The position numbers were made by a program, and so were the translations under genes. Shown here in pieces: positions 4,518 through 27,117 of a stretch of 64,000 bases of DNA. This DNA is from an uncultured Acidobacteriota bacterium (GTDB taxonomy: Bacteria; Acidobacteriota; Thermoanaerobaculia; Multivoradales; UBA5704). The notes beneath the pieces are model-generated. The model ran no database searches. It saw only the letters and a program-made list of their open reading frames with translations, and was not told the DNA's origin. The stretch is from assembly GCA_963795735.1 (NCBI GenBank), contig CAWCIU010000018.1, positions 1,602,262-1,666,261 on the forward strand, read 5' to 3'. Every line of letters starts with the position of its first letter. The first letter of the stretch is position 1.

Positions 4518-4530
4518 GGGCGACTCCTTC

Positions 4531-5493: not shown

Positions 5494-5600
5494 TTTTACC
5501 GCAATCCGAGGCTTTTCAGCTGCCTGTTAGATCCTTTCGTCTATGGCCTGTACCTTATCACCTCTTGTTGTCCGGCTCTCACACCTTAACGTTCTCTGCA

Positions 5601-12216: not shown

Positions 12217-12507
12217 GGCATCGCCTCACCAAGTCGGACGGCAGTTGTCCGCCATTCTATAGGAATGAACCCGTCTTACCTTCAGCTCGACAGAGTAGGA
12301 AGCGCCCCAGGTGTCTAAGAGCGTCGCTAAGTCGCGATCCAGGGCGCCATCCTGGAAACGGCTTTCAGGGCGCTTCCTGAGCCGCCGCCTCGCTCTATAA
12401 CGATTCGGCACCTCGCCGGGGCGGCACCTCTTCCCCGGGCAGCGCGCTCCCGGGCGAGCTCCGGGCGGCCGCTCGACGCCAGGCACACCGCTTTTCGGAG
12501 TCTCTGT

Positions 12508-12936: not shown

Positions 12937-13181
12937 CAGTCCAAGTCTTCTTCCCGCAGCTTGTTGATGAGCTCATTGGAGATCGCGCCACCACGGGGGG
13001 GCAACGGTTCGAAGCCAAAGAAGCTCTTCGGCTTCTCGACCTTGGGATCCTCCTTGTACCGATGGGTCAGCGCCTCCCGAGCGAGCTCAGACAGGAGATC
13101 TCCGGCGCTGCGCTTCTGCCGCCGCGCCCTCTCCTTGACCGCCAGCAGAACATCCTCCGCGATATCGAGCGTGGTGCGCAT
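12936..13181 (-). CDS. vapB: Type II antitoxin VapB (81 aa).
   Basis: MRTTLDIAEDVLLAVKERARRQKRSAGDLLSELAREAL is a typical VapB N-terminus. It lies directly upstream of vapC and overlaps it. Confidence 0.7.
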   Translation of the reverse strand: MRTTLDIAEDVLLAVKERARRQKRSAGDLLSELAREALTHRYKEDPKVEKPKSFFGFEPLPPRGGAISNELINKLREEDLD

Positions 13182-13439
13182 GCATCAGATGCTAGCACAG
13201 CCGGGTAGAGTTACTATGGCGAGAAGCACCTGCACCTCGTCCTGGGGTACTCCGGGCGCCGGAGCCCTCTCCGAGTCGGTCGGGAACGGCGCACCCTGCG
13301 GGGAAACAACCGTCGTGGGGAACGTCTCTCCCTGGAAGGGGAATCGCGTTTCCGGCGGACGGCTCACCCAGTACCGGGGGGATAGTCCCAGCGAATCATC
13401 TGGCACCTCGCCCGGGGGGCTCCAATTTTATCCGGAACC

Positions 13440-14171
13440 TCAGCCGTCTGCTGCAGGGGTCTCGTTAGCCGCTTCTAGGTCGCTCACGAGGCCATAGCCC
13501 CACTGCCTCCCCACCAACTCATGCTCGGCACGGCATTTCTCGCATGTGAACCGTGTGCCGATCTTAAGCTTCCGGTTCTCTAACAGAGTTTCATGTTCAC
13601 ACTTCATGCAACGGAAGTTAGAAGCGATTAGGCGAAATAAAATCTTACCCTCTTCGCTTTCAATGGCATAAAATTCTGCACCGCAAGACGGATTCAGATA
13701 CACAGCCTTATGACTCTTCTGTACTCCCTCTAGGTTCGCCGCTACGGGTTCGCCACACACGGAACATTGAAACTCAACCAAGCTTGCGAGTGAGCTATCA
13801 ATGCGACTCGCTACCACAGGTTCTAATTCCGCTACAACGCTATCAAGGTACTTCCGAAGTTCCTTTGGATCTCGTTGAAGCGGCGAAGACTCGGCCGGAG
13901 GCGACAGTACGTGAAGAAGGTTCCCAATTTTATTGTAACGCTTCCGAAGCCAAGACACCTTGAGACCTTTATGGTTACCTAAGCTCATCCACTTTCCCGT
14001 AGGTACTCCTGGCTCGGATTCAAACGCCACCATCATCTGGAAGTCTTGATCTGCTCCAGGCTCAAGCTCAAGGAGGGCTTTAACCGCTTGCGGAGGCTGC
14101 CAGATGGCAAGAACGCCCTTAGGCAGTCGCTTAGCATAGGTCTCCAGTTTCTGGTAAGTTACCGCCTCCAT
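13440..14171 (-). CDS. Hypothetical protein with two C-terminal zinc-ribbon-like motifs; the first gene found at the 3' end of the low-GC cassette.
   Basis: Probable start MEAVTYQKLETYAKRLPKG. The motifs are CSVCG-x20-C(GAEF) and CMKCEH-x16-CEKC. No family was recognised. The gene is low-GC. Confidence 0.5.
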   Translation of the reverse strand: MEAVTYQKLETYAKRLPKGVLAIWQPPQAVKALLELEPGADQDFQMMVAFESEPGVPTGKWMSLGNHKGLKVSWLRKRYNKIGNLLHVLSPPAESSPLQRDPKELRKYLDSVVAELEPVVASRIDSSLASLVEFQCSVCGEPVAANLEGVQKSHKAVYLNPSCGAEFYAIESEEGKILFRLIASNFRCMKCEHETLLENRKLKIGTRFTCEKCRAEHELVGRQWGYGLVSDLEAANETPAADG

Positions 14172-14372
14172 GCAAAATCGAAGTTCTAGGCAGACATAGC
14201 GCAAGACGGAATCGCTCCTCTTTCTAGGAGTTCCTTTGCGCGCTTAAGGCAACTTCTCTTATCGAAGCTCATTCAGAAGTCTCTCCTCGAGCATCTACGG
14301 CAGCAACGTTCTAGGCCTCCGCTGCGGACTATAGGGTTGGGTGCGCCGCCACATTTGCGAGGACCAGGGATT

Positions 14373-15527
14373 TCAGCGGTCAACTCGGATCCATGCTATA
14401 GGATGTTCTGAATCGGCTGAAGCATATGCTCCCTTTTTGACTATCCGTTCAACTTTCCCACTGACTGGCGCTTGTATATTGCATCCCTTCCGTAAGTTCT
14501 CCAGGAAAGCAAGCCACTGCTCCAATACACTACCGGAGAATGATCTTTCCTCTTTTCTACGATTCCAATCCGCTACTGCCAGAAGTTTTCTTTCTTTGGC
14601 GATCTTGGCCTCAGTTTCAGCCTCTTCAACAGAATCTGGAGGTACTACTCCTGCCTCCTTGAGCCTCTGATATCGGGATAAATGCTGATCGGCTCGCAAA
14701 GCCTGCAAACTCTCCACTGACTTCGCGCTCTCCGGGCTAACATCGCTTGCTCCTGGAACTTGCAAATGACGCAACTCGCCACGGGTCCTCAGAATCTCAC
14801 GATCCAGTGCCTCGCAATCCTGCTGTACAATAACCTGTCCTTGCTTGATCTGAGCGCCCTGTTTCCATGTCTCTAAAACCGTACCCCCATAGCGTGCAAA
14901 GACAGGGTACAAATCGTTACTAAGTGGGGGATAGGGAGGATTTGGAGGAGTCGGAGTAGTAATGGATGTTGATTCTGAACGGGCAACCCAGAGGACTTGG
15001 AGTCGGTCGAGAGAATTGTTCACCTGCTCCCAGCGTCGAATTTCATCCTTGCTGACACGAGTCAATGAGACCAAGGACGTACTTACCGAGAACACAGCAC
15101 CAGCGAGAAGACCCGCCCCGACAATCGGCGCGAACAGCCTAACTGCGAATTCCACTGGCGCGCCAGATCCTTTTGAGTGCTCAAGTGTGCCAAAAATCTT
15201 CTCTGCTACATTTTCAAAAAATTTTCGCTCTGGGTCTAGACCACCCAGAACATTCGTGATTACAAAGGCTAATCCCCAGACGAAGCCAATCATAATGAGG
15301 ACAGCCATACTAAAATGGGCAACGTTATAGAGGATTGCAAAGGGACCATCATCTCCGGCGAGAACTCCAAGCAGATACCTGCGAAGGCCCTGCGAGCGAG
15401 CAACTTCTTTATCCATACCTCTCGCCCATTGATGATACACCTCGAAAAAAAGGAGCCCGAAGCAGCCAACAACAACGAGGGTGATCGAACCACGCAAGCT
15501 GGACCAAAACATAGATGACTTCATCAT
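14373..15527 (-). CDS. Membrane protein with 3-4 N-terminal TM segments plus a coiled coil and a split lipoyl-like (HlyD/membrane-fusion-like) domain.
   Basis: TM segments are ITLVVVGCFGLLFFEVY, FSMAVLIMIGFVWGLAFVITNVLGG and LFAPIVGAGLLAGAVFSVSTSLVSL. The C-terminal half has YGGTVLETWKQGAQIKQGQVIVQQD, then a coiled coil, then IQAPVSGKVERIVKKGAYASADSEHPIAWI. This is the barrel-sandwich hybrid signature of HlyD-type adaptors. The gene is low-GC. Confidence 0.5.
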   Translation of the reverse strand: MMKSSMFWSSLRGSITLVVVGCFGLLFFEVYHQWARGMDKEVARSQGLRRYLLGVLAGDDGPFAILYNVAHFSMAVLIMIGFVWGLAFVITNVLGGLDPERKFFENVAEKIFGTLEHSKGSGAPVEFAVRLFAPIVGAGLLAGAVFSVSTSLVSLTRVSKDEIRRWEQVNNSLDRLQVLWVARSESTSITTPTPPNPPYPPLSNDLYPVFARYGGTVLETWKQGAQIKQGQVIVQQDCEALDREILRTRGELRHLQVPGASDVSPESAKSVESLQALRADQHLSRYQRLKEAGVVPPDSVEEAETEAKIAKERKLLAVADWNRRKEERSFSGSVLEQWLAFLENLRKGCNIQAPVSGKVERIVKKGAYASADSEHPIAWIRVDR

Positions 15528-15747
15528 CTTCTCCTTGAATTACTCCTGGACAAGTGCATAAGTAAGAAGTTGAAAGATAAAGCCGAAAAATTTGACCTGC
15601 CCAACGGGAGTGTGGCTGAGTGGCGGCGCCAGCCGTCCGCTCGAGCCTCCGGCCGCACTGGTTCTCCATGCATGCGATTGAAGCGCGATAAATGATTGTC
15701 GTCTTGATGCGAGTCCATTTCAATGGTTGCCCATGCGCAGCATATCA

Positions 15748-16344
15748 CTACTTACCAATAATCATCTTCACTATCATCGCCACGAACGAGATGCAATACG
15801 TGAAAGTGTTTAAATAATTTGGCCGCTCAGGAGTAAGCTTCAAACGTATCCATTCGGCAAGACGTAGAGGTGAGAGAGCTAATGCCATCCCGATTAGAAA
15901 TAGAAGGACCACAAGATACCCAAGCAACACGATGGGCCAAATAATGAAAAGAAGGAAAGCATCGCGAGAGCGAAAATCCTGCTCGAACCAATTGAATGGC
16001 CATGGCGGAAGGCGATGCGGGAAATCTTCTCTCCACCAGCGGCAAAATTTTCTGCCAACGCGCTGGGTCGGCAAGTATTGCAGTCTAAGCAGCGGCACAA
16101 TAAAAACGAGGCTAAGGAGGGTACCTGCTTCTCCAAGAGCGCGCAAGAAAAGGGATAATGATAGAAACATTACGATCAAACTTGTAAAAGTTAGGGTGAT
16201 TAACGCCAATACCTTCGAAGCCTTCCAAGTGGCCGCCCCTACTCTCAATAGCCATTCTTCTATTTTTCGGGCACGCTTCTCCCCTATAATCGTACTGATT
16301 CCGAAGATGGGGCCCAGCGTAAGGAGAACGTCCAGGATAGCCAT
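15748..16344 (-). CDS. Polytopic membrane protein (198 aa, about 5 TM segments) of unknown function; the first gene of the low-GC cassette in transcription order.
   Basis: The track gives MAILDVLLTLGPIFGISTIIGEKRARKIEEWLL…, followed by four more hydrophobic helices. An AT-rich putative promoter region lies at 16345-16500. Confidence 0.5.
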   Translation of the reverse strand: MAILDVLLTLGPIFGISTIIGEKRARKIEEWLLRVGAATWKASKVLALITLTFTSLIVMFLSLSLFLRALGEAGTLLSLVFIVPLLRLQYLPTQRVGRKFCRWWREDFPHRLPPWPFNWFEQDFRSRDAFLLFIIWPIVLLGYLVVLLFLIGMALALSPLRLAEWIRLKLTPERPNYLNTFTYCISFVAMIVKMIIGK

Positions 16345-16519
16345 AATTCTATGCTAGAACGTTGCTGGCCAACCTAGCTTATCCGCTTCGTCCCACGCTG
16401 CCTTACCAATATCCTGCATCTACCTGGCCGGGAAAGTCATAACGGATAGCTATGAGTCGATCTCATTCTAATTATAGACTTAGCTTTATCGTAAACCACT
16501 CCATCCTCTGCGTCAATAC

Positions 16520-16790
16520 GCCTCCGGTTGTCGTATAAGCGGCCGATCGACTCGCCGAGGCAGCTGCTGCTTATCCGACAACCTGCAATGAGGCCTCTCG
16601 AGGGAAGGGCGCTTAAATTGTCGTGTAAGCGTCTCCCGTCGAGGGCTGGTGGTGCTTATGCGCAGGCCGTCCGTCGGCATGGATTCTTGCGACGAACGGC
16701 GGGGGCTTGGAAGTCTCACGACTGCAAGAATTGGGGCGTGGAGCGGAGAGATCTCCCGGTTGCTTATGCGACAGAGAGTCGTCGGATCGG
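16520..16790. repeat. Array of five copies of the 12-mer TGTCG(T/C)(A/G)TAAGC in alternating orientation, forming two inverted-repeat pairs.
   Basis: Copies read tgtcgtataagc (about 16529), gcttatccgaca (about 16567), tgtcgtgtaagc (about 16622), gcttatgcgca (about 16654) and gcttatgcgaca (about 16762). The first pair extends to a 15-bp inverted repeat, GGTTGTCGtATAAGC…GCTTATcCGACAACC. No coding potential is present. Confidence 0.5.
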
Positions 16791-17139
16791 CGTCAGACGG
16801 AGTCGACAGGGCTTGGACGCCCCGGCATCCTCGGTGCCCGTATCCCAACGTAACCAAAAACCCTCCGTAACACGCCGCCCCTCAGCGGGAGGCCCCCTCC
16901 TCCCACCCGGCGGCCTGCGGTCGGCGGGTGCCTGGTCCTTCGATTGTCAATGAGCTCTCGCGACGGGCCGTTGCCGGCTCTCGCGGCTTCGCCCAGGACG
17001 GATGCGTCCGGGGCGAAGCTCCCTGTCCTTCCGATCCCCCTTGAAGGATCAGGAATACTTCTGTAATGTGCATATAGTTGACGATCTAGAACGGCGTGTC
17101 AAGCCCTGAGGGTGAAGAAAGGGCGCGACGCGCTCGCCT

Positions 17140-17480
17140 TCCCCAGGGGGAAGATCGCTCGATCGACGGGGAATGGCCCGTTCCCCAGAGTCCTTGAGGC
17201 GTTCCCCGCGGGGAATACCTCCCGAAGCGGAATGCGCATGGCTAAAGCTGGCTTGAAGATCCCGTTCCCCGGCTTTCCGGCTGCATTCCCTAGGCGGAAC
17301 GGCCCGTTCCCCGGGCGGAGCGGGAGCCGGCGGGCGGGGAATGGGGCGCGGCGCTGCCGATGCGGCCCTTTCCCCGGAGATCGCGGCGTGTTCCCCGCGG
17401 AAAATGCCTTTCGCGGGACAGGGAACGCGATGCGTTGGACAGGGAACGGCCCGCGGCGGGCAGGGAATGCCGCCCGCGGG
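17140..17480. repeat. Cluster of about 9 GC-rich palindromes built on TTCCCC/GGGGAA half-sites, for example ggggaatggcccgttcccc and the perfect palindrome ttccccgcggggaa.
   Basis: Copies lie at about 17146 (cttccccagggggaag), 17168, 17200, 17262, 17294 (ggcggaacggcccgttccccgg), 17355, 17389 and 17410-17470 (gacagggaacg x2, cccgcggcggg/cccgcccgcggg). Track ORF 17112-17501 over this region is low-complexity (GNGPFP repeats) and not credible as coding. Confidence 0.45.
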
Positions 17481-17654
17481 CCGGGTTGCAGGGTTCATTG
17501 ACAACTGACACACACGGGCAGGGGGTGATGCGGGGCGTCCCCTGCCGTTGCCATGCCGCGCGGCCTTTCGATCGGCCGGACGCGCCGCGCGGCGTCTTTT
17601 CCCGGCCGTCCCGAGATCCGAGATCCACGATGGGGCCCGGCCGGTCTTCACCAC

Positions 17655-18085
17655 GCCGGCGAGGAAATCCCCCTTACGGCTTTCCCAGCAGATCCATCAA
17701 CACGGCCACCTCCGCCTCCACGCCGGTCGCGATCGTCGGGTCGCGGTCGGGGGCGAAGAGGCTGGAGTGGAGGGAGGGGGGGCTGCTTGCCGGCCGCCGC
17801 GAGCTCCTTGAGCTTCGCGGGATCGCCGGCGCCCAGGCTCCACTGGACCGCCGGGACTCCCGCCAGCCCGTACTCGCTGAAGTCCTCGGAGGCCATCTGC
17901 GACGGCACGTCGACGACGTTGCCGTCGCCGAAGGTCCGGCGCAGGGCCGCCGCGATCCGGGCGGTCAGCTTGGGGTCGTTGTAGGTCGCGGGGCAGCTCT
18001 CGATGACCGCGAAGGCCGGCTCCTTCGGCGCTCCCGCCGCCACCGCCTCGGCCCTGGCGATGCGCTCGATGGCGGCGGATGGCGG
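17655..18085 (-). pseudogene. Duplicated 3' fragment (C-terminal about 145 codons) of the M20 amidohydrolase gene at 20894-22192.
   Basis: About 97% nucleotide identity to 20868-21300. It encodes AAIERIARAEAVAAGAPKEPAFAVIESCPATYNDPKLTARIAAALRRTFGDGNVVDVPSQMASEDFSEYGLAG...AAAGKQPP. No 5' part is present. Confidence 0.7.
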
Positions 18086-18087
18086 CG

Positions 18088-18135
18088 AGTGCCAGCCGAT
18101 CCTCGAGACTCTCTGCTCCGGATCGGCTGGCACTT
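18088..18135. repeat. Palindromic element of about 45 bp (14-bp perfect arms, gtgccagccgatcc…ggatcggctggcac), with a second copy at 22320-22368.
   Basis: The sequence is agtgccagccgatcctcgagactctctgctccggatcggctggcac. The second copy differs by 1 nt. Both copies sit at the 5' side (minus-strand sense) of an M20 gene copy. Confidence 0.55.
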
Positions 18136-18198
18136 GGCACTTGGTGCTGCCTGGAACTGCGCCGGCACCTCGAGCTCGGGGATCTGGGGTAGACTGCT

Positions 18199-19296
18199 GT
18201 GGTTTCATGGAAGGTCCTTACCGTAGTGCTCTCTAACCCCCAGCGCCTTGCCCTGGCAACGAAGCTCTCCCACCTGCGCCAGCCGGTGGCGGAGGCGGTG
18301 ACGGAGCAGTTCTTCCAGCGCCATCCGGACTGGGGGGACCGCTACGGCCCGCGGGGGCGCGAGCGGGGGATCGAGGACGCCCGCTACCACCTCGACTTCC
18401 TCGGCGGCGCCCTGACCGCGGGAGAGCCCCAGGCGTTCGCGGACTACGTGCGCTGGGCGCGGCGAGTGCTCGCGGCGCGCGGCCTCGAGTCCCGCTTCCT
18501 GCGCGAGAACCTGGAGCAGATCGCCGGCGCTCTCGCCGCCCGGCTCGACAGCGACTCGAGGCCCGCCATCGAGGAATTGATGGAGGCCGGCCTCGCGGCT
18601 TGCGACGAGCCGGCCGGCGGCGCCCCCGCAGACGAGGCCGAGGAAGGGGCGCTGGCCGCGGAGCGGCGGCTCTACCTGCAGGCCGTCCTGCGCGGGCAGC
18701 GCGAAGCCGCCATGGGAATCGTGAGCGCGAGCCTCAAAGCCGGCCACCCGGTGCTGGACCTCTATCTCAAGATCCTGCAGCCCGTCCAATACGAGATCGG
18801 CCGCCTCTGGGAGCGCAACGCGATCTCCGTGGCCGAGGAGCACATGGCCACCGCCATCACGCAGTCGGTCATGGCGCGCCTCTACCCCCTGGTGCCCCAG
18901 GAGCGGCAATCCTGCCGCGGCCGGATGGTCCTCACCGGCGTCGAGGGCGAGATGCACCAGGTGGGCGCCAACATGGTCGCCGACGTGGTGGAGATCCACG
19001 GCTGGGAGGTCCGCTTCCTCGGCACCAACCTCCCCCAGGAGGGCATCCTGCGCGTCGTCGAGGAGCAGCGGCCGGACGTCGTGGGAGTCTCGGCGACGAT
19101 GCTGTTCAATCTTACGCGGGTGCGGAGCCTGATCGAGGCGGTCCACGCCCTGCCGATCCCGCGGCCCCGGGTCCTCGTCGGCGGCGCGGCGTTCCGGACG
19201 GCGGCCGGCGCCTGGAAGGAGGTCGGCGCGGACGCCTGCGCCCTCGACCTCGAGCAGGCGATCGAGCTCTTGTGCGGCGACGGCGTTGCCGCCTGA
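18199..19296 (+). CDS. Cobalamin (B12)-binding domain protein with an N-terminal helical domain; a putative B12-dependent sensor or regulator.
   Basis: The C-terminal B12-binding Rossmann motif is RMVLTGVEGEMHQVGANMVADVVEIHGWEVRFLGTNLPQEGILRVVEEQRPDVVGVSATMLFNL. The start may be a non-ATG codon. Confidence 0.7.
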   Translation: MVSWKVLTVVLSNPQRLALATKLSHLRQPVAEAVTEQFFQRHPDWGDRYGPRGRERGIEDARYHLDFLGGALTAGEPQAFADYVRWARRVLAARGLESRFLRENLEQIAGALAARLDSDSRPAIEELMEAGLAACDEPAGGAPADEAEEGALAAERRLYLQAVLRGQREAAMGIVSASLKAGHPVLDLYLKILQPVQYEIGRLWERNAISVAEEHMATAITQSVMARLYPLVPQERQSCRGRMVLTGVEGEMHQVGANMVADVVEIHGWEVRFLGTNLPQEGILRVVEEQRPDVVGVSATMLFNLTRVRSLIEAVHALPIPRPRVLVGGAAFRTAAGAWKEVGADACALDLEQAIELLCGDGVAA

Positions 19297-19311
19297 CCCG
19301 AAAGGAAGTGC

Positions 19312-20838
19312 ATGGTCCTCGCGCTCTCACGCTTTCGGGTCGTCAACGGTATGGAAGAGCAGGTCGCGGAGGCCTTCCTCAACCGCCCGCACCTGGTGGA
19401 GGAGGCCGCCGGCTTCCTCGGAATGGAGGTCTTCCGTGACCGCCGCGACTCCAAAGCCTTCTATCTGGCCACCCGCTGGAGTGACGAGAGGTGCTTCCGG
19501 GAGTGGCACCGCAGTGAGGCGCACCACAGATCGCACCTGGGGATCCCCGGCGGCCTGAAGCTCGATCCCTCCTTCACCGAGGTCCGGGAGCTCGAGCGGA
19601 TCGAGGAGCCGGGCGAGGCCTCCTTCGAGATCGCCGACGCCAGCTTGCTGTTCGGCCATTTTGTCGGCCAGACCTCCTGCACGCTGTTCCTGCGCTGCAC
19701 GACCGACGGCACCCTCCTGGCCTGCAATCCGGCGATGGCGGAGCTCTTCGGCACGCCCGCTCCAGCCCTTGTGGGCCAGCCGCTCTGGAGCCACCTGACC
19801 GATTCCAACGCGGAGCTCCTGCGGGCGCGCATCGCGACCGCGGCGCGCCGGCCGGGGGAGCGGTTCAGGCTCAACGTCTGCGACTCCGCGCACGCGCCTC
19901 ACACTCTCGAATGTCACCTGGACCTGCGTCCCGACGGCTTCTTGCTGATCGGCGAGCGGGACTATTCCGGAGCCGAGCGGCTGCAGAGCGAGCTGCTCGT
20001 GCTCAACCAGGAGCTGGCGGTGATGGCGCGCGAGCGCGGCCAGGCGCTGGCCCGGCTCCAGCGAGTCGAGCAGGAGCTCGAGCGGCTGCTCGCCAGCGAG
20101 CGGCTGGCGCGCGCCGAGGCGGAAAAAGCGAACCGCCGCAAGGACGAGATCCTGGCCATGGTCTCCCACGACCTGCGCGCGCCGCTCGGCGCGATCTCGG
20201 GCTGGGCCCAGCTCCTGGCCGCCGGCCAGCTCGGCGCCGAAGGCATCGCCCGCGCCATCGCCGCCATCCAGCGCAACGCCGGTCTCCAGGCGCAGTTGAT
20301 CGAAGACCTGCTGGACGTGGCCCGCGCCCAGGCCGGCACGCTGCGGTTCGCCCCCCGGCCGATGGATCCGGCGGCGGTGGTCGAGACCGTCCTCGAGATG
20401 GAAAGGCCCACCGCCACGGCGAAGGGGGTTTCGCTGGAGCACGCGGTGACGGGCGGCGCGGCGATCCTGGTGCTGGCCGATCCGGCGCGGCTGGGGCAAG
20501 CGCTCGGCAACCTGGTGGTCAACGCCGTCAACTTCACGCCGGCGGGGGGGCTCATCGAGGTGCGGCTCGAGCCGGAGGGAGACGCGCTGGCGATCCGTAT
20601 CCAGGACTCCGGAGTGGGGATCGACGCCGCGTTTCTCCCTCACATCTTCGACCGCTTCCGCCAGAGCCGGACGGAACCGGGCGTCAAGGAGTCCGGCCTG
20701 GGGCTGGGGCTCGCCATCGCCCGCGACCTGATCGAGCTCCAGGGCGGCACGATCGAGGCCACGAGCGGCGGCCCCGGCCAGGGGGCGACCTTCACGGTGA
20801 GGCTGCCCCGCCATCCCGTCCCGGCGTCGAGCGCGTGA
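19312..20838 (+). CDS. Sensor histidine kinase with an N-terminal ABM (antibiotic-biosynthesis-monooxygenase/IsdG-like) domain, then PAS, then HisKA, then HATPase_c.
   Basis: The ABM-like N-terminus is MVLALSRFRVVNGMEEQVAEAFLNRPHLVEEAAGFLGMEVFRDRRDSKAFYLATRWSDERCFREWHRSEAHH. The H-box is ILAMVSHDLRAPLGAISGWAQLL. The G-boxes include GLGLGLAIARDLIELQGGTIEA. The gene starts 16 nt after the B12-protein gene. Confidence 0.8.
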   Translation: MVLALSRFRVVNGMEEQVAEAFLNRPHLVEEAAGFLGMEVFRDRRDSKAFYLATRWSDERCFREWHRSEAHHRSHLGIPGGLKLDPSFTEVRELERIEEPGEASFEIADASLLFGHFVGQTSCTLFLRCTTDGTLLACNPAMAELFGTPAPALVGQPLWSHLTDSNAELLRARIATAARRPGERFRLNVCDSAHAPHTLECHLDLRPDGFLLIGERDYSGAERLQSELLVLNQELAVMARERGQALARLQRVEQELERLLASERLARAEAEKANRRKDEILAMVSHDLRAPLGAISGWAQLLAAGQLGAEGIARAIAAIQRNAGLQAQLIEDLLDVARAQAGTLRFAPRPMDPAAVVETVLEMERPTATAKGVSLEHAVTGGAAILVLADPARLGQALGNLVVNAVNFTPAGGLIEVRLEPEGDALAIRIQDSGVGIDAAFLPHIFDRFRQSRTEPGVKESGLGLGLAIARDLIELQGGTIEATSGGPGQGATFTVRLPRHPVPASSA

Positions 20839-20893
20839 TCTTCTACGCGTGATCTTCTAAGGGACTCCAAGGACGCCGGCGAGGAAATCTCCC

Positions 20894-22192
20894 TTACGGC
20901 TTTCCCAGCAGGTCCATCAACACGGCCACCTCCGCCTCCACGCCGGTCGCGATCGTCGGGTCGCGGTCGGGGGCGAAAAGGCTGGAGTGGAGGGAGGGGG
21001 GCTGCTTGCCGGCCGCCGCGAGCTCCTTGAGCTTCGCGGGATCGCCGGCGCCCAGGCTCCACTGGACCGCCGGGGCTCCCGCCAGCCCGTACTCGCTGAA
21101 GTCCTCGGAGGCCATCTGCGACGGCACGTCGACGACGTTGCCCTCCCCGAAGGTCCGGCGGAGGGCCGCCGCGATCCGGGCGGTCAGCTTGGGGTCGTTG
21201 TAGGTCGCGGGGCAGCTCTCGATGACCGCGAAGGCCGGCTCCTTGGGCGCTCCCGCCGCCGTCGCCTCGGCCCTGGCAATGCGCTCGATGGCGGCGAGGA
21301 TGTGCTTCCGGACCTCCTCCTTGTAGGCGCGGACGGTGATCTGCAGCTTCACCTCGTCGGGGATGATGTTGTGCTTGTTGCCGCCATGGATCGAGCCCAC
21401 GGTGACAACCGCCGGGTCCTGCGGGTCCTTCTCGCGGGCGATGATCGTCTGCAGCGCCAGGACCGTGCGGGCGGCGATCACGATGGGATCGACGGTCGTC
21501 TGCGGCGAGGCGCCGTGGCCCCCCTTGCCGTAGATCGTCAGGTCGACCGAGTCGGAAGTTCGCGAGGGCATAGCCCGAGGTGACGCCGAGCTGGCCGGCC
21601 GGCAGGTTCGGGCTATCGTGGAGGGCCACCACGAAATCGGGCTTGGGAAAACGGGTGAAGAGCCCGTCCTTGAGCATCGCCCGGGCGCCCCGGATCCTCT
21701 CCTCGGCGGGCTGGCCGATGAAGACGAGGGTGCCGTGCCAGTCGGCCTTGCGGCGCGCCATCTCGGCCGCCGTCCCCACCAGGGCCGTCATGTGGACGTC
21801 GTGCCCGCAGGCGTGCATCACCGGCACCTCGGCACCCGAGTCGTCCTTGACCCGCACCGTGCTGGCATAGGAAGGCCGGTCTTCTCCTCAACCGGCAGGG
21901 CGTCGAGCTCGGTCCGCAGCATCACGGTGGGGCCGGAGCCGTTCTTGAGCACCCCCACCACCCCGGTGCCGCCGACCCCGGTCGTCACCTCGAAGCCCGC
22001 CTGGCAGAGCCGGGCGGCGACCTTGGCGGCCGTCTTCTCCTCGTGCAGCGAAAGCTCCGGGTGTTGGTGGAGGTCGACGTAGAAATCCCGGAGATCCGGC
22101 GACAGGGCTTTGGGAGCCGGGGCCGCCGGCCCAGGTATGGCGCGGAGCAGGGAGAGGAGAGCGAGTGAAGCCACGACGGGGAAGCGAGGCAT
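20894..22192 (-). pseudogene. M20/M25/M40 family amidohydrolase (hippurate-hydrolase/aminoacylase-like) with a signal peptide, split over three frames by two single-nucleotide frameshifts.
   Basis: Frame a (21818-22192) reads MPRFPVVASLALLSLLRAIPG...LRTELDALPVEEKTGLP. Frame b then reads YASTVRVKDDSGAEVPVMHACGHDVHMTALVG...GYALANF. Frame c then reads DSVDLTIYGKGGHGASPQTTVDP... to the end. Junction 1, at about 21855, has one T missing from a TT run (ccttcct|atgcc instead of ccttccttatgcc). Junction 2, at about 21570, has an extra C in ttcc. Confidence 0.7.
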
Positions 22193-22475
22193 AGGGTCTC
22201 CGTGAAGAGGGAATCCTGCGGGTGAGCCTACCAGGAGCCTTCCCGGGCGTCCATGCAGGAGCCCTCGCGCCGGCCACCCGAGGCCTACGGCACCCTGTTG
22301 ACGGGTGACCGTGACGTCCGCGCCACGACGAGTGCCAGCCGATCCTCGAGACTCTCTGCTCCCGATCGGCTGGCACCTGGTGCCGCCGGTTAGTGCGTTG
22401 ATCGCAAGAGTCGGCGGTGTTCCTCTGACAGAGGTCCGGTTCTTTGACCCAGGGATTCTCTTTCCTCACCCACAG

Positions 22476-22730
22476 GTCACGTTCTCTGACCTCCAGGTCA
22501 CGTTCTCTGACCTCCAGGTCACGTTCTCTGACCTCCAGGTCACGTTCTCTGACCCACAGGTCACGCTCTCCGACCTCCAGGTCACGCTCTCTGACCCAAA
22601 GGTCACGCTCTCTGACCCACAGGTCACGCTCTCCGACCTCCAGGTCACGGTCTCTGACCTCCAGGTCACGCTCTCCGACCCACAGGTCACGCTCTTCGAC
22701 CCAACCGGCCCGAGACTCACCATGGTCCGC
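22476..22730. repeat. Tandem array of 12 copies of a 21-bp unit, ctccaggtcacg(t/c)tctctgac, with no spacers.
   Basis: Units differ by 1-3 nt (ccacag/ctccag/ccaaag; gttctct/gctctcc/ggtctct). Each unit junction forms the palindrome TGACCtccaGGTCA, so GGTCA/TGACC half-sites recur every 21 bp. In-frame translation gives QVTFSDL or SRSLTSR heptads, but no credible start or ribosome-binding site is present. Confidence 0.65.
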
Positions 22731-22818: not shown

Positions 22819-23046
22819 ATGAGATCACGTCGGATGTGGAGCCGGTTGGCGTTGCTGGGATGTCTCGGGGTGTCCGTCCTGCTGGGCTCCGGACACGGCA
22901 AGGCCGCCCTGGCCACGACCTGCCCGATGGGCGGTCCCTACTGCACCTCGGATCCGGTTTGCGTGACGTACTGTCAGGGAGTGACCGGCTTCACGGACGG
23001 GCACCACTGCATCGTCAGCACGCATTGCTGCCGCTGCGCCCTGTAG
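22819..23046 (+). CDS. Small secreted cysteine-rich peptide (75 aa; 9 Cys in a mature region of about 50 aa, C-terminal HCCRC).
   Basis: MRSRRMWSRLALLGCLGVSVLLGSGHGKAALATTCPMGGPYCTSDPVCVTYCQGVTGFTDGHHCIVSTHCCRCAL. An AGGAGG ribosome-binding site lies 8 nt upstream. This is an internal start of track ORF 22444-23046. Confidence 0.6.
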   Translation: MRSRRMWSRLALLGCLGVSVLLGSGHGKAALATTCPMGGPYCTSDPVCVTYCQGVTGFTDGHHCIVSTHCCRCAL

Positions 23047-23240: not shown

Positions 23241-23435
23241 ATGATCCGTAAGATCGTCCTTGGACTCGTGCTCACCGGCGCTCTGGCCGCCACCTCGTAC
23301 GCCGACAAGTGCGTCCCGAACCCGAACCCGATCTGCTATCAGATCTACGCGCCGGTCACCTGCAGCAACGGCGTGACCTACACCAACCAGTGCTACGCGA
23401 CCGCCGCCTGCGCGGTGGGCTGCCACCCCGCCTAG
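23241..23435 (+). CDS. Small secreted Kazal-like domain peptide (64 aa), a putative serine-protease inhibitor.
   Basis: [21 protein letters not shown] signal peptide, then [38 protein letters not shown]. This has six Cys in Kazal spacing (C-x7-C-x7-YAPVxC-x-NGVTYxNxC-x6-C-x3-C). A GAAAGGGGAA ribosome-binding-site region lies upstream. Confidence 0.6.
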
Positions 23436-23483: not shown

Positions 23484-26122
23484 TCAGCGCGCGTCCCGGG
23501 CCGCCGCGGTGAGCGCGGAGAGCACCCGCCGGTACTCCTCTTCGAGCGCCGCCAGGGGGACGGCGCAGGCTTCGACCTCGGTGTTGGGCGCCAGCCGCTC
23601 GAGCTCGCCACAGAGCATCGACAGGCCCATCGCCCCCAGCACCCCGCTGGTGCCCCGCAGCGCGTGCGCCCTCCGCCGGAGCAGCGGCCAGTCGCCGCGG
23701 GTGACCGCCGAGCGGATCTCGGTCACGTGCGCCTGCGCCTGGAACGTTTCCGCGATCTCGCCCAGCACGTCCCGCCCCACCGCCCGCCCCAGCGCCCGCA
23801 GCTCCGTGAGCCGGTCGCCGTCGAGCGGCGGCAGGGGCTCGGGCGGAGCGGCGAGGCCGTCCGGCACGGCCGCGAAGCACTCCGGCTCCGGGAGGCCGGC
23901 GCCGGCGTCCTCCAGCCAGCGCTCCAGCTTGCGCCGCAGGACCTCCTCCAGGAAGGGCTTGGTGACGTAGTCGTTCATGCCCACGGCGAGGCAGCGCTCC
24001 AGCTCCTCCCGCATGGCATGGGCGGTCAGCGCCACGATGGGGATCTGCCGGGTCTTCTCCGGACCTTCGCGGATGCGGCGCGAGGCCTCGTAGCCGTCGA
24101 GCTCCGGCATCTGGCAGTCCATCAGGACGAGGTCGAAGCCGCCGCTCTCCAGCGCCTCCAGGGCCTCCCGCCCGTTGTTGACGGCCACCACGTCGTAGCC
24201 CATCACCGTGAGCTGCTCGACGACGACGAGCTGATTGATCACGTTGTCCTCCGCCACCAGGATGCGCCGCCGCCGGCCTCCCGGCCGCGCGGCCGCCTCG
24301 CTCCCCGGCGGGCAGCCGTCCGGCGCCGAAGCGGCCTCGAGCTCGAGGACGAACCAGAAGGTCGAGCCCTCCCCGGGCCGGCTCTCGAAGCCGATCTCGC
24401 CGCCCATCCGCTCGACGATCCGCCGGCTGATCGCAAGCCCCAGCCCGGTGCCGCCGAAGCGCCGCGAGGTCGAGCTGTCGGCCTGGGAGAAGAGCCCGAA
24501 GAGCCGCCCCTGGGACTCCAGGGGAATGCCGATCCCGGTGTCGCGGACGGCGAACCGCAGCCGGCCGCCGGCGAGCCGCCGCGCCTCGACGTCGACCGTC
24601 CCGGCGGTGGTGAACTTCACCGCGTTGCCCACCAGGTTGGTGAGCACCTGGCGCAGGCGCCCGGGATCCCCCCAGGCCCACTCCGGCACCCCCTCGCCGA
24701 AGGTGAGGTTGAGCTCGGTGTCGTGGCTGCCGGCGGTGAACCGCAGCAGCTCGACGATCTCGCGCAGCGTGCCCGTCAGATCGAAGCACACCCGCTCGAG
24801 CACCAGCTCGCCGGCCTCGATCTTGGAGAAATCCAGAATGTCGTCGATCAGCCGCAGCAGCGAGGCCGCCGAGCTTCTGGATCAGCTCGGCGTAGTCGTT
24901 CTGCTGCGCCGACAGACCCGTCTTGCGCAGCAGCCCGATCAGGCCCAGGACCCCTGCCATCGGCGTCCGGATCTCGTGGCTCATGTTGGCCAGGAACCGC
25001 CCCTTGGCCTGGTCGGCCTGCTCGGCCGCCTCCTTGGCCAGCCGCAGCTCCTCGGTCCGGCGGCGCTCCGTGACGTCCCGGTTGATGCTGAGGATCGCCG
25101 GCCGGCCCTCGTATTCGATGAACGAAGCGTTGATCTCGAGGAACATCCGGCTGCCGTCCTTGCGGAGCTGGGTCGACTCGAAGTTGTAGAAGACCCCCCG
25201 CTCCATGGTCTCGGCGACCTGCTGGCGGCCGCGCTCGACGTTCTCGGAGATGTCCTCCAGCGACAGGCCGATGAACTCTTCGCGGCTCATGCCGTAGATC
25301 TCGCAGGCCCGGCGGTTGACGTTGAGGACGATCTCCCGCTCGGGCGAGAAGATGAGGATGGGATCGTGAGCGCTCTCGAAGATCCGGCGGTAGTCGAGGC
25401 TCGCCTTGCGCAGCTCCTCGGCGCGCTGGTCGGCCCGCCGCTCGAGCTCGTCGCGGTCCTGGCGGAGCTTCTGCTTGAGCGGCCTCCAGCTCCGCGGTCC
25501 GGACGGCGAGCTGGTGGGACCGCAGGAGCCCTGTCCAGCGGTCGCGGTAAAGCTGGCCGCCCAGCAGGAGGAGATAGAGGAAGAAGGTGGCCAGGCAGAG
25601 GTACTCCCAGCGCCCCAGGTGCCACCGGGTCGAGCCGAAGACGCCGGCGAGGGAGAGGAGCACCGGCAGGACCAGCAGGGCGACGAAGGCGCAGACGACG
25701 CGGGGCGCGTGGGGATAGAGGATGACGCTCAGGCTCGCGGCCACCGCGACGAGGATGAGGACGAAGAACGATTGGATGCCGGGGCCGAGGCTCGTCAACA
25801 CGGCGCCGGCCAGCCCACCGAGAAGCAGGCCCTTCAGGACGACCGCGGAGTAAAAGGCGATCCGCCACCGCCGGGGGCTGGCCTGGAAGAGCGGCTCGAA
25901 CCGCTGGATCAGATAGACGCGCAGGGCGGCGAGAGCGAGGACGGCGATCGCGGAGACGTCGAAAAACAGAGGGGCCCGCTTCGGCAGGTCCGCCGTCAGC
26001 CCGAGGACCAGCAGCGCGAACGGATAGCTCAGCGCCCCCGCGAGGGAGCGCCGGGCGGACAGCCGATCCGCGGCTTCCCTGACCGCGGGCGGAATCGGAC
26101 GCGGACTCTCCGATCGTGACAA
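23484..26122 (-). pseudogene. Hybrid sensor histidine kinase (N-terminal 5-6 TM sensor, PAS, HisKA, HATPase_c, REC, Hpt) interrupted by two single-nucleotide frameshifts.
   Basis: Track ORF 24848-26122 carries the membrane domain. ORF 23356-25290 carries PAS and the HisKA start ([23 protein letters not shown]). ORF 23484-24803 carries the rest (…[29 protein letters not shown]…[24 protein letters not shown]…[11 protein letters not shown]…[22 protein letters not shown]…Hpt). The frame junctions are at about 25465 (…AELEAAQ | [12 protein letters not shown]…) and about 24862 (…ELIQK | [11 protein letters not shown]…). Confidence 0.65.
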
Positions 26123-26378: not shown

Positions 26379-27071
26379 ATGGACAAACCGACGATCCTGG
26401 TGGTCGAGGACGAGCCGGCGATCGCCGACACCCTCCAGTACGCCCTCGAATCGGAAGGGTTCCAGTGCCTCCGCCTGGAGGTGGGCGCGGGGGTGGCCGA
26501 GGTGCTCGACCGGCAGCCGGTGGCGCTGGTGGTGCTCGACATCGGCCTGCCGGACATGAGCGGCATCGAGGTCTGCCGGAGAATCCGCCAGCGGCACGAC
26601 GTCCCGATCATCTTTCTCACCGCGCGCGGCGGCGAGCTGGACCGCGTCGTGGGCCTGGAGATCGGGGCGGACGATTACGTGAGCAAGCCGTTCAGCCCGC
26701 GGGAGCTGGCGGCCCGGGTCAAGGCGGTGCTGCGGCGGACCCGGCCCGGCAACGCCGCCCCTCCGCCTCCCCCTCCGGCCGCCGCCTTCGCGCTCGACGA
26801 GGAGCGGCTCCAGATCACCTATTTCGGCAAGCCCCTCGAGCTCTCGCGCTACGAGTACCGGCTGCTCGCCGTCCTGCTCAAGCGGCCCGGCCGCGTCTAC
26901 AGCCGCGAGCAGCTCCTGGAGCTCGCCTGGGACGAGCCCGAGGCCAGCCTGGACCGCACGGTCGACGCGCACGTCAAGAACCTGCGGGCGAAGCTCCGCG
27001 ACGTCCGCCCCGAGATCGATCCGATCGCGACCCACCGCGGTGCGGGCTACTCGCTGAAGGAAGGGTTATAA
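26379..27071 (+). CDS. creB: OmpR-family response regulator, CreB-like.
   Basis: MDKPTILVVEDEPAIADTLQYALESEGFQC…LDIGLPDMSGIEVCRRIRQRHDVPIIFLTARGGELDRVVGLEIGADDYVSKPFSPRELAARVKAVLRR closely resembles E. coli CreB, recalled from memory. The symbol is tentative. Confidence 0.8.
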   Translation: MDKPTILVVEDEPAIADTLQYALESEGFQCLRLEVGAGVAEVLDRQPVALVVLDIGLPDMSGIEVCRRIRQRHDVPIIFLTARGGELDRVVGLEIGADDYVSKPFSPRELAARVKAVLRRTRPGNAAPPPPPPAAAFALDEERLQITYFGKPLELSRYEYRLLAVLLKRPGRVYSREQLLELAWDEPEASLDRTVDAHVKNLRAKLRDVRPEIDPIATHRGAGYSLKEGL

Positions 27072-27117
27072 AGGTCATGAAGAGGGGAATCACCGAAGGG
27101 ATCACCGGGGAAAGATC

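What the first reader, a model, noticed from the sequence alone, without database searches (positions are those of the whole stretch)
17655..21310. Direct repeat of about 440 bp (a duplicated 3' end of an M20 amidohydrolase gene) brackets a B12-binding-protein/ABM-PAS histidine-kinase module
17655-18110 is about 97% identical to 20868-21300, the 3' end of the M20 amidohydrolase gene 20894-22192. In both copies the same 45-bp palindromic element follows on the minus-strand 5' side, at 18088-18135 and 22320-22368. The upstream copy is therefore a deletion derivative, pal plus the 3' third of M20, of a duplicated pal-M20 unit, and the B12/histidine-kinase gene pair sits between the two copies. 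This suggests the signalling module was captured or mobilised by recombination between the repeats, or by a pal-associated mechanism.
Basis: seen in the sequence. Interest (0 to 1): 0.6.

Follow-up and report, generated by a model that had tools for sequence, protein, structure and literature searches.

The report
Recombination scar beside a sensor-kinase operon
A 425-bp leftover of a peptidase gene plus a small DNA hairpin sits upstream of a B12-sensor/kinase gene pair and repeats the end of the full peptidase gene downstream; it is a real but ordinary scar of sloppy recombination in a highly variable genome region, not evidence of a new gene-mobilising mechanism.

Summary
Window 17653-18077 repeats 20873-21297 (425 bp, 97%), the 3' end of an M20 amidohydrolase gene. 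A roughly 52-nt hairpin element, "pal", occurs at 18089-18133 and 22332-22376.

The upstream copy is a deletion derivative of an M20-pal unit. Its junctions carry only short microhomologies: CGAG at M20'|pal and GCC at pal|B12-upstream.

Three independent short-read contigs from other samples contain these junctions and break inside the repeats, so this is not an assembly artefact. A 98.6%-identical contig, L001, has B12-HK-M20 without the upstream copy, and its flank diverges exactly at 18148/18149.

Close M20 orthologues (89-93% aa) sit in different contexts on both sides. Window ~900-17650 is compositionally foreign (RHS toxin, low-GC genes). The region is therefore an island hot spot.

pal is low-copy, and in four related contigs or genomes it lies just 3' of another kinase operon. 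No recombinase was found. The full M20 carries two frameshifts.

Best reading: one illegitimate join placed a second M20-pal unit upstream of B12-HK, and an internal deletion followed. That the repeats or pal mobilised the module is not shown, but it is not fully excluded, because B12-HK is ten times less diverged than M20. Interest is low.

The parts
17653..18077 (-). Copy A (M20'). It holds 21 nt of M20 3' flank plus the last ~134 codons of an M20 amidohydrolase gene (stop codon at 17674-17676). It is truncated at its 5' side and has a +1 G in the G run at ~17773-17779. It is non-functional because the catalytic N-terminal part is missing.
18068..18087 (.). Junction J2 (M20 internal point | pal), with a perfect 10-bp tandem duplication GATGGCGGCG x2 specific to this assembly. 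Sibling contig L064 has the simple join GATGGCGGCGAG|TGCCAGCC. The microhomology CGAG is shared by 21294-21297 and 22327-22330.
18083..18148 (.). pal unit A. The hairpin is at 18089-18133 (14-bp GC-rich stem, 17-nt loop) with conserved flanks (A)CGAG and CACYTGG. It contains a 7-bp tandem duplication TGGCACT/TTGGCAC at 18128-18144. That duplication is absent from L064, present in L066, and replaced by a 13-bp duplication in L065.
18148..18149 (.). Junction J3 (right end of pal unit | upstream region of the B12 gene), with 3-nt microhomology GCC. The 98.6%-identical contig L001 diverges from the window exactly here.
18226..19296 (+). Gene for a stand-alone B12-binding protein (B12-binding_2 + B12-binding). 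It carries CarH-type Wx9EH and ExHxxG motifs and has no DNA-binding domain. The longest ORF starts at 18199; gene callers use 18226.
19312..20838 (+). ABM-PAS-HisKA-HATPase_c sensor histidine kinase, the conserved partner of the B12-binding gene.
20832..20859 (.). Perfect 14-bp tandem duplication (CGCGTGATCTTCTA x2) overlapping the HK stop codon. It is absent from L001, L064 and L065.
20873..21297 (-). Copy B of the repeat: the 3' flank and 3' third of the full-length M20 gene.
20894..22192 (-). Full-length M20 amidohydrolase gene (conceptually 432 aa). In this assembly it is interrupted by a 1-nt deletion at ~21873 and a 1-nt insertion at ~21557, giving a stop codon 19 codons after the first shift. 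It is a probable pseudogene. Intact 432-aa orthologues at 89-93% identity exist in relatives.
22326..22389 (.). pal unit B (hairpin 22332-22376, 13-bp stem), 134-197 nt upstream of the M20 start codon.

Best explanation
The repeat is a genuine structural scar that is present in natural populations. It lies in a hypervariable island hot spot next to the M20 gene of an uncultured Thermoanaerobaculia-like acidobacterium.

The starting arrangement was the one seen in contig L001: B12-HK, then a convergent M20, then (inferred) pal. One illegitimate, microhomology-mediated join (J3, at GCC) connected the right end of an M20-pal unit to the region upstream of the B12 gene. This gave M20-pal | B12-HK-M20-pal.

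That join could have arisen in two ways, and the data do not separate them:
(a) A head-to-tail duplication of the 4.24-kb unit 18149-22389, with later loss of the left B12-HK.
(b) A join between two haplotypes, one carrying island-M20-pal and the other carrying B12-HK-M20-pal. This would work through homology-facilitated illegitimate recombination, or through Campbell-type insertion of a circularised unit.

A second illegitimate deletion (J2, at CGAG) then removed about 1,030 bp of the left M20, leaving its 3' 404 nt fused to pal. Replication slippage next to the hairpin later added small tandem duplications.

No dedicated mobility machinery is involved. pal acts at most as a fragile or slippage-prone hairpin.

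Shown: the anatomy, the junction sequences, the presence of the junctions in other samples, the haplotype that lacks copy A, and the variable context of M20.

Inferred: the order of events, which copy is resident, and that the 425-bp repeats now make B12-HK deletable by RecA-type recombination. Identical blocks between the copies reach about 80 nt.
For: 1. Repeat and pal are real.

2. Independent confirmation. Logan short-read contigs from three other sequencing runs are 98.8-99.7% identical to the window. L064 (SRR24887401) covers window 18050-20906, L065 (SRR35985686) covers 18111-20921 and L066 (ERR11523670) covers 18090-20078. L064 contains J2, pal and J3. L065 starts inside pal and contains J3. 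L066 starts at the hairpin and contains pal and J3. L064 and L065 end 33-48 nt inside copy B and L064 begins 28 nt inside copy A, which is what assemblers do at true repeats.

3. Haplotype without copy A. L001 aligns to 18149-21468 at 98.55%, but its first 239 nt (the end of a TonB-C-like gene) match nothing in the window. It also assembles straight through the M20 3' end, as expected for a single copy.

4. Junction microhomologies are CGAG at J2 and GCC at J3. Illegitimate joins at 3-10 bp are the documented signature of homology-facilitated illegitimate recombination (PMC6382021).

5. Head-to-tail logic. J3 joins the end of the unit (22389) to its start (18149/18150).

6. Hot spot.
- M20 orthologues at 92-93% aa identity (L061, L062, L063) share only the gene, about 70 nt upstream and at most 10-20 nt downstream with the window.
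- In L063 the M20 3' end lies about 1 kb from the homologue of window 20-936. In the window, 17-20 kb intervene.
- L006 keeps only an M20 5' remnant plus pal between low-GC foreign DNA.
- Window ~900-17650 has atypical GC/GC3 and carries an RHS toxin and a VapC.

7. No recombinase was found among the ORFs tested.

8. A and B differ like alleles. Of 10 coding differences, 7 are at third codon positions. This favours variant (b), or later import by homologous recombination.
Against: - The copies differ by 3.1%, while B12-HK differs by only 0.37% between the window and L001. A simple recent in-situ tandem duplication with L001 as ancestor does not fit without extra events.
- In variant (b), copy B should resemble L001's M20, but it is the most divergent pair (16 of 416). 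Only the first ~50 nt of copy B in L064 and L065 look L001-like.
- Four or five independent breakpoints lie within about 20 nt of the pal stem. That is more than a passive bystander would suggest.
- No read-level data and no complete L001-type haplotype were available. It is not shown that L001's M20 has pal upstream.
- L001 is a 3.5-kb metagenomic contig and could itself be chimeric at its left end.
Confidence: 0.6

Rival explanations
1. The module is mobilised through the repeats. RecA-type recombination between the two M20 3' ends excises a 3.2-kb circle (pal-B12-HK plus one M20 fragment). After transfer, the circle re-inserts by single-crossover homologous recombination into the M20 gene of other strains and recreates the same structure. 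B12-HK would then be a homology-driven 'hitchhiking cassette'.
For: B12-HK is about ten times less diverged between haplotypes than M20 (10 of 2690 nt against 23 of 575 nt), and the switch is sharp at the HK|M20 boundary. Copies A and B differ like alleles from different strains. Blocks of perfect identity up to about 80 nt are enough for homologous recombination. M20 is conserved in many related genomes and could serve as a landing pad.
Against: L001 has B12-HK-M20 with no upstream copy, and its flank diverges at J3, not inside the repeat. The circle model does not predict that. The circle would already have to contain the illegitimate junctions J2 and J3. None of the M20 orthologue loci examined (L061-L063) carries the module. 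B12-HK relatives at 74-79% aa identity lie in unrelated contexts without M20.
Confidence: 0.15
2. pal is a functional recombination site or a tiny mobile element (attC-, REP/REPIN- or MITE-like). A dedicated enzyme would cut and join at its borders, shuffling adjacent genes including B12-HK.
For: - A discrete, conserved core of about 52 nt, including the loop, with sharp borders and different flanks in different genomes.
- pal sits next to M20 in the window and L006 but 3' of an RR-HK operon in L004, L005, L022 and L039. The window's copy of that operon (26379-28548) lacks it.
- Several independent breakpoints lie within about 20 nt of the stem.
- The hairpin is stable, -34 to -41 kcal/mol with z of -4 to -5.7.
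Against: - Very low copy number. There are 2 in 64 kb, 3 contigs in the metagenome collection and 2 of 185,579 species genomes, with one copy per stretch.
- No target-site duplication and no GTTRRRY attC core.
- No integrase or transposase nearby.
- The junction positions differ (0-4, 2, 4 and 9-16 nt from the stem) and use microhomology.
- In L004, L005, L022 and L039 the flanks of pal are mutually conserved, so it is stable there.
- No Rfam family matched.
Confidence: 0.08
3. The repeats are attL/attR-type duplications left by a genomic island that integrates site-specifically into the 3' end of M20 and carries a replacement 3' end.
For: The flank immediately 3' of M20 is a hot spot that is filled differently in every related genome. 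Copy A borders 16.7 kb of compositionally foreign DNA. Direct repeats of a gene's 3' end are typical of such integrations (established knowledge of integrative elements).
Against: The DNA between the repeats is only pal-B12-HK, with no integrase. The foreign island lies outside the repeats, to the left of copy A. Copy A is joined to pal by an internal M20 deletion, not by an att core. A 425-bp repeat is far longer than usual att duplications. No tyrosine or serine recombinase was detected among the island ORFs tested.
Confidence: 0.05
4. Assembly artefact: a falsely expanded or chimeric repeat in a metagenome-assembled contig.
For: The window appears to be metagenomic, with only metagenome relatives. 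Two genes in this stretch carry frameshifts. No read data were available.
Against: The copies differ at 13 of 417 positions, whereas artefactual duplicates are identical. J2 and J3 are present in short-read contigs from other sequencing runs (J2 in L064; J3 in L064, L065 and L066), and L064 and L065 break at the repeat edges. The junction microhomologies (3-4 nt) are far shorter than assembler k-mers.
Confidence: 0.02

Closest known systems
Bacterial segmental or tandem duplication join points formed by RecA-independent illegitimate recombination at short homologies, as in gene-amplification studies in Salmonella, E. coli and Acinetobacter baylyi (e.g. PMC1428787 and PMC9997567, listed; mechanism from general knowledge)
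   Same: The copies are direct and head-to-tail. The novel junction joins the end of a unit to its start at a 3-nt microhomology. Internal deletions and slippage duplications followed. The duplicate has decayed into a remnant.
   Different: The copies are 3% diverged with an allele-like, third-position pattern, and only a remnant of the left copy survives. The event is old, or it involved two haplotypes rather than sister chromosomes.
Homology-facilitated illegitimate recombination (de Vries & Wackernagel 2002; Prudhomme et al. 2002; Meier & Wackernagel 2003, as summarised in PMC6382021)
   Same: One end could be anchored by homology (M20-pal or conserved flanks), and the other is joined at a 3-10-bp GC-rich microhomology. 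Strain-specific DNA is inserted next to a conserved gene. A haplotype lacking the insertion exists (L001).
   Different: Donor and recipient are not identified. Natural competence of this lineage is unknown. The result is a duplication of the anchor rather than a simple replacement.
Palindrome- or hairpin-stimulated deletion and slipped-strand mispairing at the base of hairpins (classical E. coli work on palindrome instability and SbcCD; from general knowledge)
   Same: Breakpoints and 7-, 10- and 13-bp tandem duplications cluster within about 20 nt of a stable 13-14-bp GC-rich hairpin. They vary between near-identical strains.
   Different: The stem is short, with a 17-19-nt loop. It is far from the long perfect palindromes that are strongly unstable. 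The causal role is inferred only.
REP/REPIN elements, MITEs and integron attC sites
   Same: A small, conserved, imperfect palindrome in intergenic DNA that is found in different genomic contexts.
   Different: Copy number is 1-2 per genome rather than tens to hundreds. There is no target-site duplication, no attC core, no cassette array, and no RAYT, IntI or transposase in reach.
CarH/LitR and AerR-type B12-dependent light sensors (for the cargo gene 18226-19296; from general knowledge of CarH structure and function, plus NCBIfam CarH partial match)
   Same: A B12-binding_2 four-helix bundle plus a Rossmann B12-binding domain, with Wx9EH and ExHxxG motifs.
   Different: There is no MerR DNA-binding domain. 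There is an N-terminal extension of about 150 aa of unknown function. The gene is paired with an ABM-PAS histidine kinase, and in P0030 fused to the kinase, instead of acting as a repressor.

Membership tests
Segmental (tandem-type) duplication scar from illegitimate recombination | Two copies in direct orientation sharing extended nucleotide identity | tested here: met
   425 bp at 97% plus the pal unit at 95%, both direct
Segmental (tandem-type) duplication scar from illegitimate recombination | Novel join point linking the end of the unit to its start, with only a few nt of homology | tested here: met
   J3 joins 22389-equivalent to 18149 at GCC, and L001 diverges exactly there
Segmental (tandem-type) duplication scar from illegitimate recombination | Copies derive from one another within the same genome, so they are each other's closest relatives | tested here: inconclusive
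   A-B differ at 13 of 417, A-L001 at 11 of 417 and B-L001 at 16 of 416. There is one shared derived A+B site against two ambiguous A+L001 sites. The A-B differences are biased to third positions.
Homology-facilitated illegitimate recombination product | Illegitimate joint at a 3-10-bp microhomology next to a homologous anchor | tested here: met
   GCC at J3. M20-pal and the right flank are available as an anchor (definition in PMC6382021).
Homology-facilitated illegitimate recombination product | Identifiable donor and recipient haplotypes, and uptake of foreign DNA | not testable with these tools
   Only L001 (lacking copy A) was found. No island-M20(intact A allele)-pal haplotype appeared among M20 homologues.
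Integrative island with att duplication at a gene's 3' end | Integrase or recombinase gene inside the element bounded by the repeats | tested here: not met
   Only the B12-binding and HK genes lie between the repeats. No recombinase domain was found in the flanking ORFs tested.
Integron cassette / attC | attC with RYYYAAC...GTTRRRY cores, an array of cassettes and IntI | tested here: not met
   The pal sequence lacks these cores. There are two copies 4.2 kb apart and no IntI.
REP/REPIN | Tens to hundreds of copies per genome | tested here: not met
   There are 2 copies in 64 kb. One copy was found per stretch of the related 282-kb and 180-kb contigs. Only 2 of 54 genome-collection hits are true homologues.
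MITE | Terminal inverted repeats plus a target-site duplication, in multiple copies | tested here: not met
   Inverted arms are present, but the flanks (ACGAG / CCTGG) are not a duplication, and copy number is low.
Intrinsic (Rho-independent) terminator, considered for pal | GC-rich hairpin followed by a U tract at the 3' end of a transcription unit | tested here: inconclusive
   The hairpin is stable, and pal lies 10-60 nt after the HK stop codon in L004, L005, L022 and L039. However, there is no T tract, the scan did not call it, and in the window it lies in a divergent intergenic region.
M20 amidohydrolase (Peptidase_M20/M20_dimer), for copy B | Intact reading frame covering the catalytic and dimerisation domains | tested here: not met
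   Both domains are detected, but they are split over three frames by indels at ~21873 and ~21557. Orthologues are intact at 432 aa. The frameshifts could not be verified independently.

The most novel reading that the evidence does not exclude
pal is more than a passive hairpin. It would be a roughly 52-nt conserved stem-loop that natively ends an RR-HK operon in this acidobacterial lineage, and that acts as a preferred break-and-join point. The breakage could come from hairpin cleavage, replication-fork template switching, or an unidentified structure-specific enzyme. On this reading pal repeatedly relocates together with neighbouring genes and seeds the structural variation seen at M20, including the placement of an M20-pal unit in front of the B12-sensor/kinase operon.
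Probability: 0.12. Interest if true: 0.5.

Novelty: new member of a known kind. Interest (0 to 1): 0.2.

Why it matters
The value is mainly in annotation and quality control. The locus shows that a repeat bracketing a signalling module need not mean the module is mobile. It also gives a worked example of how short-read contig breakpoints and a sister haplotype can validate a repeat without reads.

Biologically, it documents an island-insertion hot spot beside a conserved M20 gene in uncultured Thermoanaerobaculia. Gene remnants, pseudogenes and strain-variable slippage duplications accumulate there. The 425-bp repeats predict that the B12-sensor/kinase pair can be lost by recombination in this population.

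The cargo is arguably the more interesting object: a CarH-like B12 sensor without a DNA-binding domain, paired with an ABM-PAS kinase.

Tried and rejected
- Rfam scan of the whole window gave no family, so pal is not a known RNA and no cobalamin riboswitch lies upstream of the B12 gene.
- sigma-54 promoter reading of TGGCAC...TGC in pal's right arm: I checked the spacing by eye, and the GG-GC distance is 8 or 11 nt rather than 10, so I rejected it.
- First pal pattern search used the wrong loop length and returned nothing. It was corrected.
- The relaxed pal search of 185,579 species genomes returned 54 stretches, of which 52 are unrelated chance palindromes with different loops.
- An unfiltered tblastx synteny comparison was swamped by high-GC noise. 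It was redone with filters.
- Exact-protein look-ups for the HK, the RR at 26379-27071 and the 5' M20 fragment found nothing. The source contig, and independent confirmation of the frameshifts, were therefore not obtained.
- A contig of more than 1 Mb carrying an identical B12 protein was indicated but not returned.
- Apparent homology between the left flank of pal B and the HK-pal spacer of L004 was not borne out by alignment.
- A search for an intact 'A-type' M20 allele among the closest homologues found none. All have IAKAEA where A, B and L001 have IARAEA.
- PADLOC and NCBIfam scans of the island ORFs found no defence system or recombinase, only a VapC toxin at 12508-12936.
- The island gene 15748-16344 was found in sample ERR11523670 (L067), but that contig stops about 170 nt short of junction J1.

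Full report
**Observation**

A self-comparison of window 16-24 kb, and of the whole 64-kb window, finds one long direct repeat. It comprises 17653-17781 against 20873-21001 (98%) and 17777-18076 against 20996-21295 (97%), offset by a 1-nt indel in a G run. Aligned together, 17653-18077 and 20873-21297 differ at 13 of 417 positions.

A second, shorter repeat, 18083-18137 against 22326-22380 (95%), contains a hairpin. Its arms are GTGCCAGCCGATC(C), 13-14 nt long, around a 17-19-nt loop. The arm pattern occurs exactly twice in the window, where none is expected by chance. The hairpin folds at -34 to -41 kcal/mol, with z-scores of -4 to -5.7.

Pfam confirms the gene identities:
- 18199/18226-19296 (+): B12-binding_2 plus B12-binding.
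- 19312-20838 (+): ABM-PAS-HisKA-HATPase_c.
- 20894-22192 (-): Peptidase_M20/M20_dimer.

The first repeat interval overshoots into pal, and the second pal is about 10 nt further right. The observation nevertheless stands.

**Anatomy of the junctions**

Copy A starts 21 nt beyond the M20 stop codon (J1, at 17652/17653) and runs to an internal point of M20. It then jumps about 1,030 bp to the pal unit (J2). The pal unit is joined to the upstream region of the B12 gene (J3, at 18148/18149).

J2 lies in a CGAG shared by M20 (…GATGGCGGCGAGGATG…) and the left border of pal (…CACGACGAGTGCC…). J3 lies in a GCC shared by the right border of pal and the B12 upstream region.

The window also carries perfect small tandem duplications: 10 bp at J2, 7 bp right of pal A, 14 bp over the HK stop codon, and 7 bp at 17611-17626.

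**Is it an assembly artefact?**

No. The exact B12-binding protein is encoded on short-read (Logan) contigs from three other sequencing runs. They are 98.8-99.7% identical to the window and cover 18050-20906 (L064), 18111-20921 (L065) and 18090-20078 (L066).

L064 contains J2 in its simple form, GATGGCGGCGAG|TGCCAGCC, plus pal and J3. L065 starts inside pal and contains J3. L066 starts at the hairpin and contains pal and J3. L064 and L065 stop 33-48 nt inside copy B, and L064 starts 28 nt inside copy A. A k-mer assembler is expected to break at exactly these points at a true repeat.

The small duplications vary between these contigs. To the right of pal there is none in L064, 7 bp in the window and L066, and 13 bp in L065. 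The 14-bp duplication is missing from L001, L064 and L065. The 3% divergence between the copies also argues against an artefactual duplicate.

**A haplotype without the upstream copy**

The closest HK homologue (P0001, 99%) lies on JGI contig L001. L001 aligns to window 18149-21468 at 98.55%. Its first 239 nt, the end of a TonB-C-like gene plus 30 nt, match nothing in the window or in any fetched locus.

The divergence point is exactly J3. L001 also assembles through the M20 3' end and 170 nt beyond the repeat, as expected if that sequence is single-copy there.

So the B12-HK/M20 adjacency exists independently of copy A. The module was therefore not captured between two M20 copies.

**Context: an island hot spot**

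After correcting two 1-nt indels, a deletion at ~21873 and an insertion at ~21557, the M20 gene translates to 432 aa. It has intact 432-aa orthologues at 89-93% identity.

Three of these orthologues on long contigs (L061, L062, L063) sit in three different neighbourhoods. Homology to the window is confined to the gene, about 70 nt upstream and at most 10-20 nt downstream. None has pal or B12-HK.

In L063 the M20 3' end is about 1 kb from the homologue of window 20-936. In the window, 17-20 kb intervene. That interval has atypical composition: GC falls to about 50% at 13.4-16.6 kb, and GC3 is 0.5-0.8 against more than 0.9 in core genes. It encodes an 1838-aa RHS-repeat protein and a VapC toxin.

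L006 keeps only the first ~87 nt of M20, with the start codon mutated to ATA, plus pal. These lie between low-GC foreign segments that include an AIPR-like gene as judged by eye, while the left end of L006 matches window 36-908.

Relatives of the B12-HK pair at 74-79% aa identity (L002, L003) lie in unrelated contexts. No integrase or transposase was found in any ORF tested around the locus.

**What pal is**

An exact-arm scan of the metagenome collection found three contigs. A relaxed scan of 185,579 species genomes found 54 stretches, of which only two have the pal loop: L022, a Thermoanaerobaculia MAG, and L039, an Acidobacteriota MAG.

In L004, L005, L022 and L039, pal lies 10-60 nt after the stop codon of an RR-HK operon. 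That operon is 85-90% identical to window 26379-28548, but the window's copy has no pal after it. The right flank of pal is conserved among those four.

The conserved core is about 52 nt, ACGAG-stem-loop-stem-CCTGG, with unrelated flanks in the window lineage. Rfam has no match, there is no T tract, and the terminator scan does not call it.

pal is therefore a low-copy hairpin. It is probably a 3'-end element of that operon. It is not a REP, MITE or attC-type repeat.

What is notable is that four or five independent breakpoints, and all the strain-variable slippage duplications, lie within about 20 nt of its stem. This fits the known tendency of hairpins to provoke slippage and illegitimate joins, although that role is inferred.

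**Divergence pattern**

Between the window and L001, B12-HK differs at 10 of 2,690 nt (0.37%). M20 differs at 23 of 575 nt (4.0%; codon positions 7/2/14). The switch is sharp at the HK|M20 boundary.

Within the repeat, A-B differ at 13 positions, A-L001 at 11 and B-L001 at 16. Polarised with three outgroups, 7 changes are specific to B, 2-3 are specific to A and one is shared by A+B. Of the 10 coding A-B differences, 7 are third-position.

The copies thus differ like alleles that evolved under selection. They do not look like a fresh duplicate decaying neutrally. M20 is also far more diverse than the strain-specific B12-HK.

One plausible cause is that homologous recombination with other strains can only operate inside the conserved M20, because its flanks are unique. 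The alternative is that the two M20-pal units came from different haplotypes.

**Best explanation**

One illegitimate join at GCC (J3) put an M20-pal unit directly upstream of B12-HK. It could have arisen as a head-to-tail duplication of the 4.24-kb unit 18149-22389, followed by loss of the left B12-HK. Or it could have joined an island-M20-pal haplotype to a B12-HK-M20-pal haplotype, through homology-facilitated illegitimate recombination or Campbell-type insertion of a circularised unit. Illegitimate joints at 3-10 bp are documented for that process (PMC6382021).

A second deletion, between the CGAG microhomologies, then trimmed the left M20 to its 3' 404 nt. Slippage next to the hairpin added the small duplications. 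I put this at about 0.6, and I cannot decide between the two sub-variants.

**Rivals**

- Homology-driven mobilisation of the module through the repeats: about 0.15.
- A pal-specific recombination system: about 0.08.
- An att duplication of an integrating island: about 0.05.
- An assembly artefact: about 0.02.

**Pseudogenes**

A GC3 frame track shows frame switches only in M20 and in the hybrid histidine kinase at 23484-26122 (-). The remaining ~36 kb of core genes have long uninterrupted frames. This favours real local gene decay over general indel error. The frameshifts could not be confirmed in another assembly.

**Verdict**

The finding is real, reproducible across samples, and explained by ordinary illegitimate recombination in a plastic region. 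It is a new instance of a known kind of event. Interest is low, about 0.2. The residual interest lies in the breakpoint clustering at pal and in the CarH-like B12 sensor/kinase cargo.

Noticed in passing
window 22423-22722: About 14 tandem copies of a 21-bp unit (consensus CAGGTCACGCTCTCTGACCTC, ~90% matches). Each unit boundary forms the palindrome TGACCTCCAGGTCA, so operator-like sites are spaced two helical turns apart. The array lies between pal B and a 75-aa Cys-rich secreted-peptide gene (ATG 22819 to 23046). A second Cys-rich 64-aa peptide gene follows at 23241-23435.
   Followed up: partly
window 17120-17490: A non-coding stretch directly left of copy A is packed with GGGAA-N-TTCCC type palindromes, for example GGGAATGGCCCGTTCCC at 17169-17185 and CGGAACGGCCCGTTCCC at 17295-17311. 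There are 4 pattern hits against 0.14 expected. A short-read contig from ERR11523670 (L067) breaks inside it at ~17484.
   Followed up: partly
window 18226-19296 and 19312-20838; P0030: The B12-binding protein has CarH-type motifs (LWERNAISVAEEH = Wx9EH; GEMHQVG = ExHxxG) but no DNA-binding domain. It is always followed by the ABM-PAS histidine kinase in L001-L003 and L064-L065. In P0030 the B12 domain is fused directly to the kinase core. This looks like a B12- or light-sensing two-gene module with no cognate response regulator adjacent.
   Followed up: partly
window 23484-26122 (-): A large hybrid histidine kinase (sensor, PAS, HisKA, HATPase, receiver) appears split over three reading frames, with shifts near 24830 and 25530. 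It is a second probable pseudogene within 2 kb of the frameshifted M20.
   Followed up: partly
window ~900-17650: A compositionally foreign island. It holds an 1838-aa RHS-repeat/SLH protein (5990-11506, -) and a 300-bp 85% repeat (5159-5458 against 6615-6914), which may mark orphan RHS C-terminal or immunity cassettes. It also holds a VapC PIN toxin (12508-12936, -) and three genes with ~50% GC and no family match (13440-16344, -).
   Followed up: partly
window 17611-17626, 18068-18087, 18128-18144, 20832-20859: Four perfect short tandem duplications (7, 10, 7 and 14 bp) lie within 3.3 kb. Three of them are absent or different in 98.6-99.7%-identical sibling contigs, which suggests an active slippage or duplication process in this lineage.
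   Followed up: yes
L004 ~3925-4083 (-) and L005, right of pal: A small gene converges on pal. It encodes MVKKTMRKLELHKESIRQLD..., which resembles a RiPP or bacteriocin-type leader peptide, judged by eye only.
   Followed up: no
window 45344-45438 (-): ARAGORN calls a 95-nt tRNA-Pro(CGG) inside a long, repeat-rich coding frame (44315-46175). It is probably a false positive.
   Followed up: no
L006 8113-9813 (+): A low-GC gene right of the M20 remnant/pal begins MSELHVRQIRAALEKEL... and looks like an AIPR-type abortive-infection protein, judged by eye. This suggests the hot spot also collects defence genes. L062 carries TIR and NACHT genes next to its M20.
   Followed up: no
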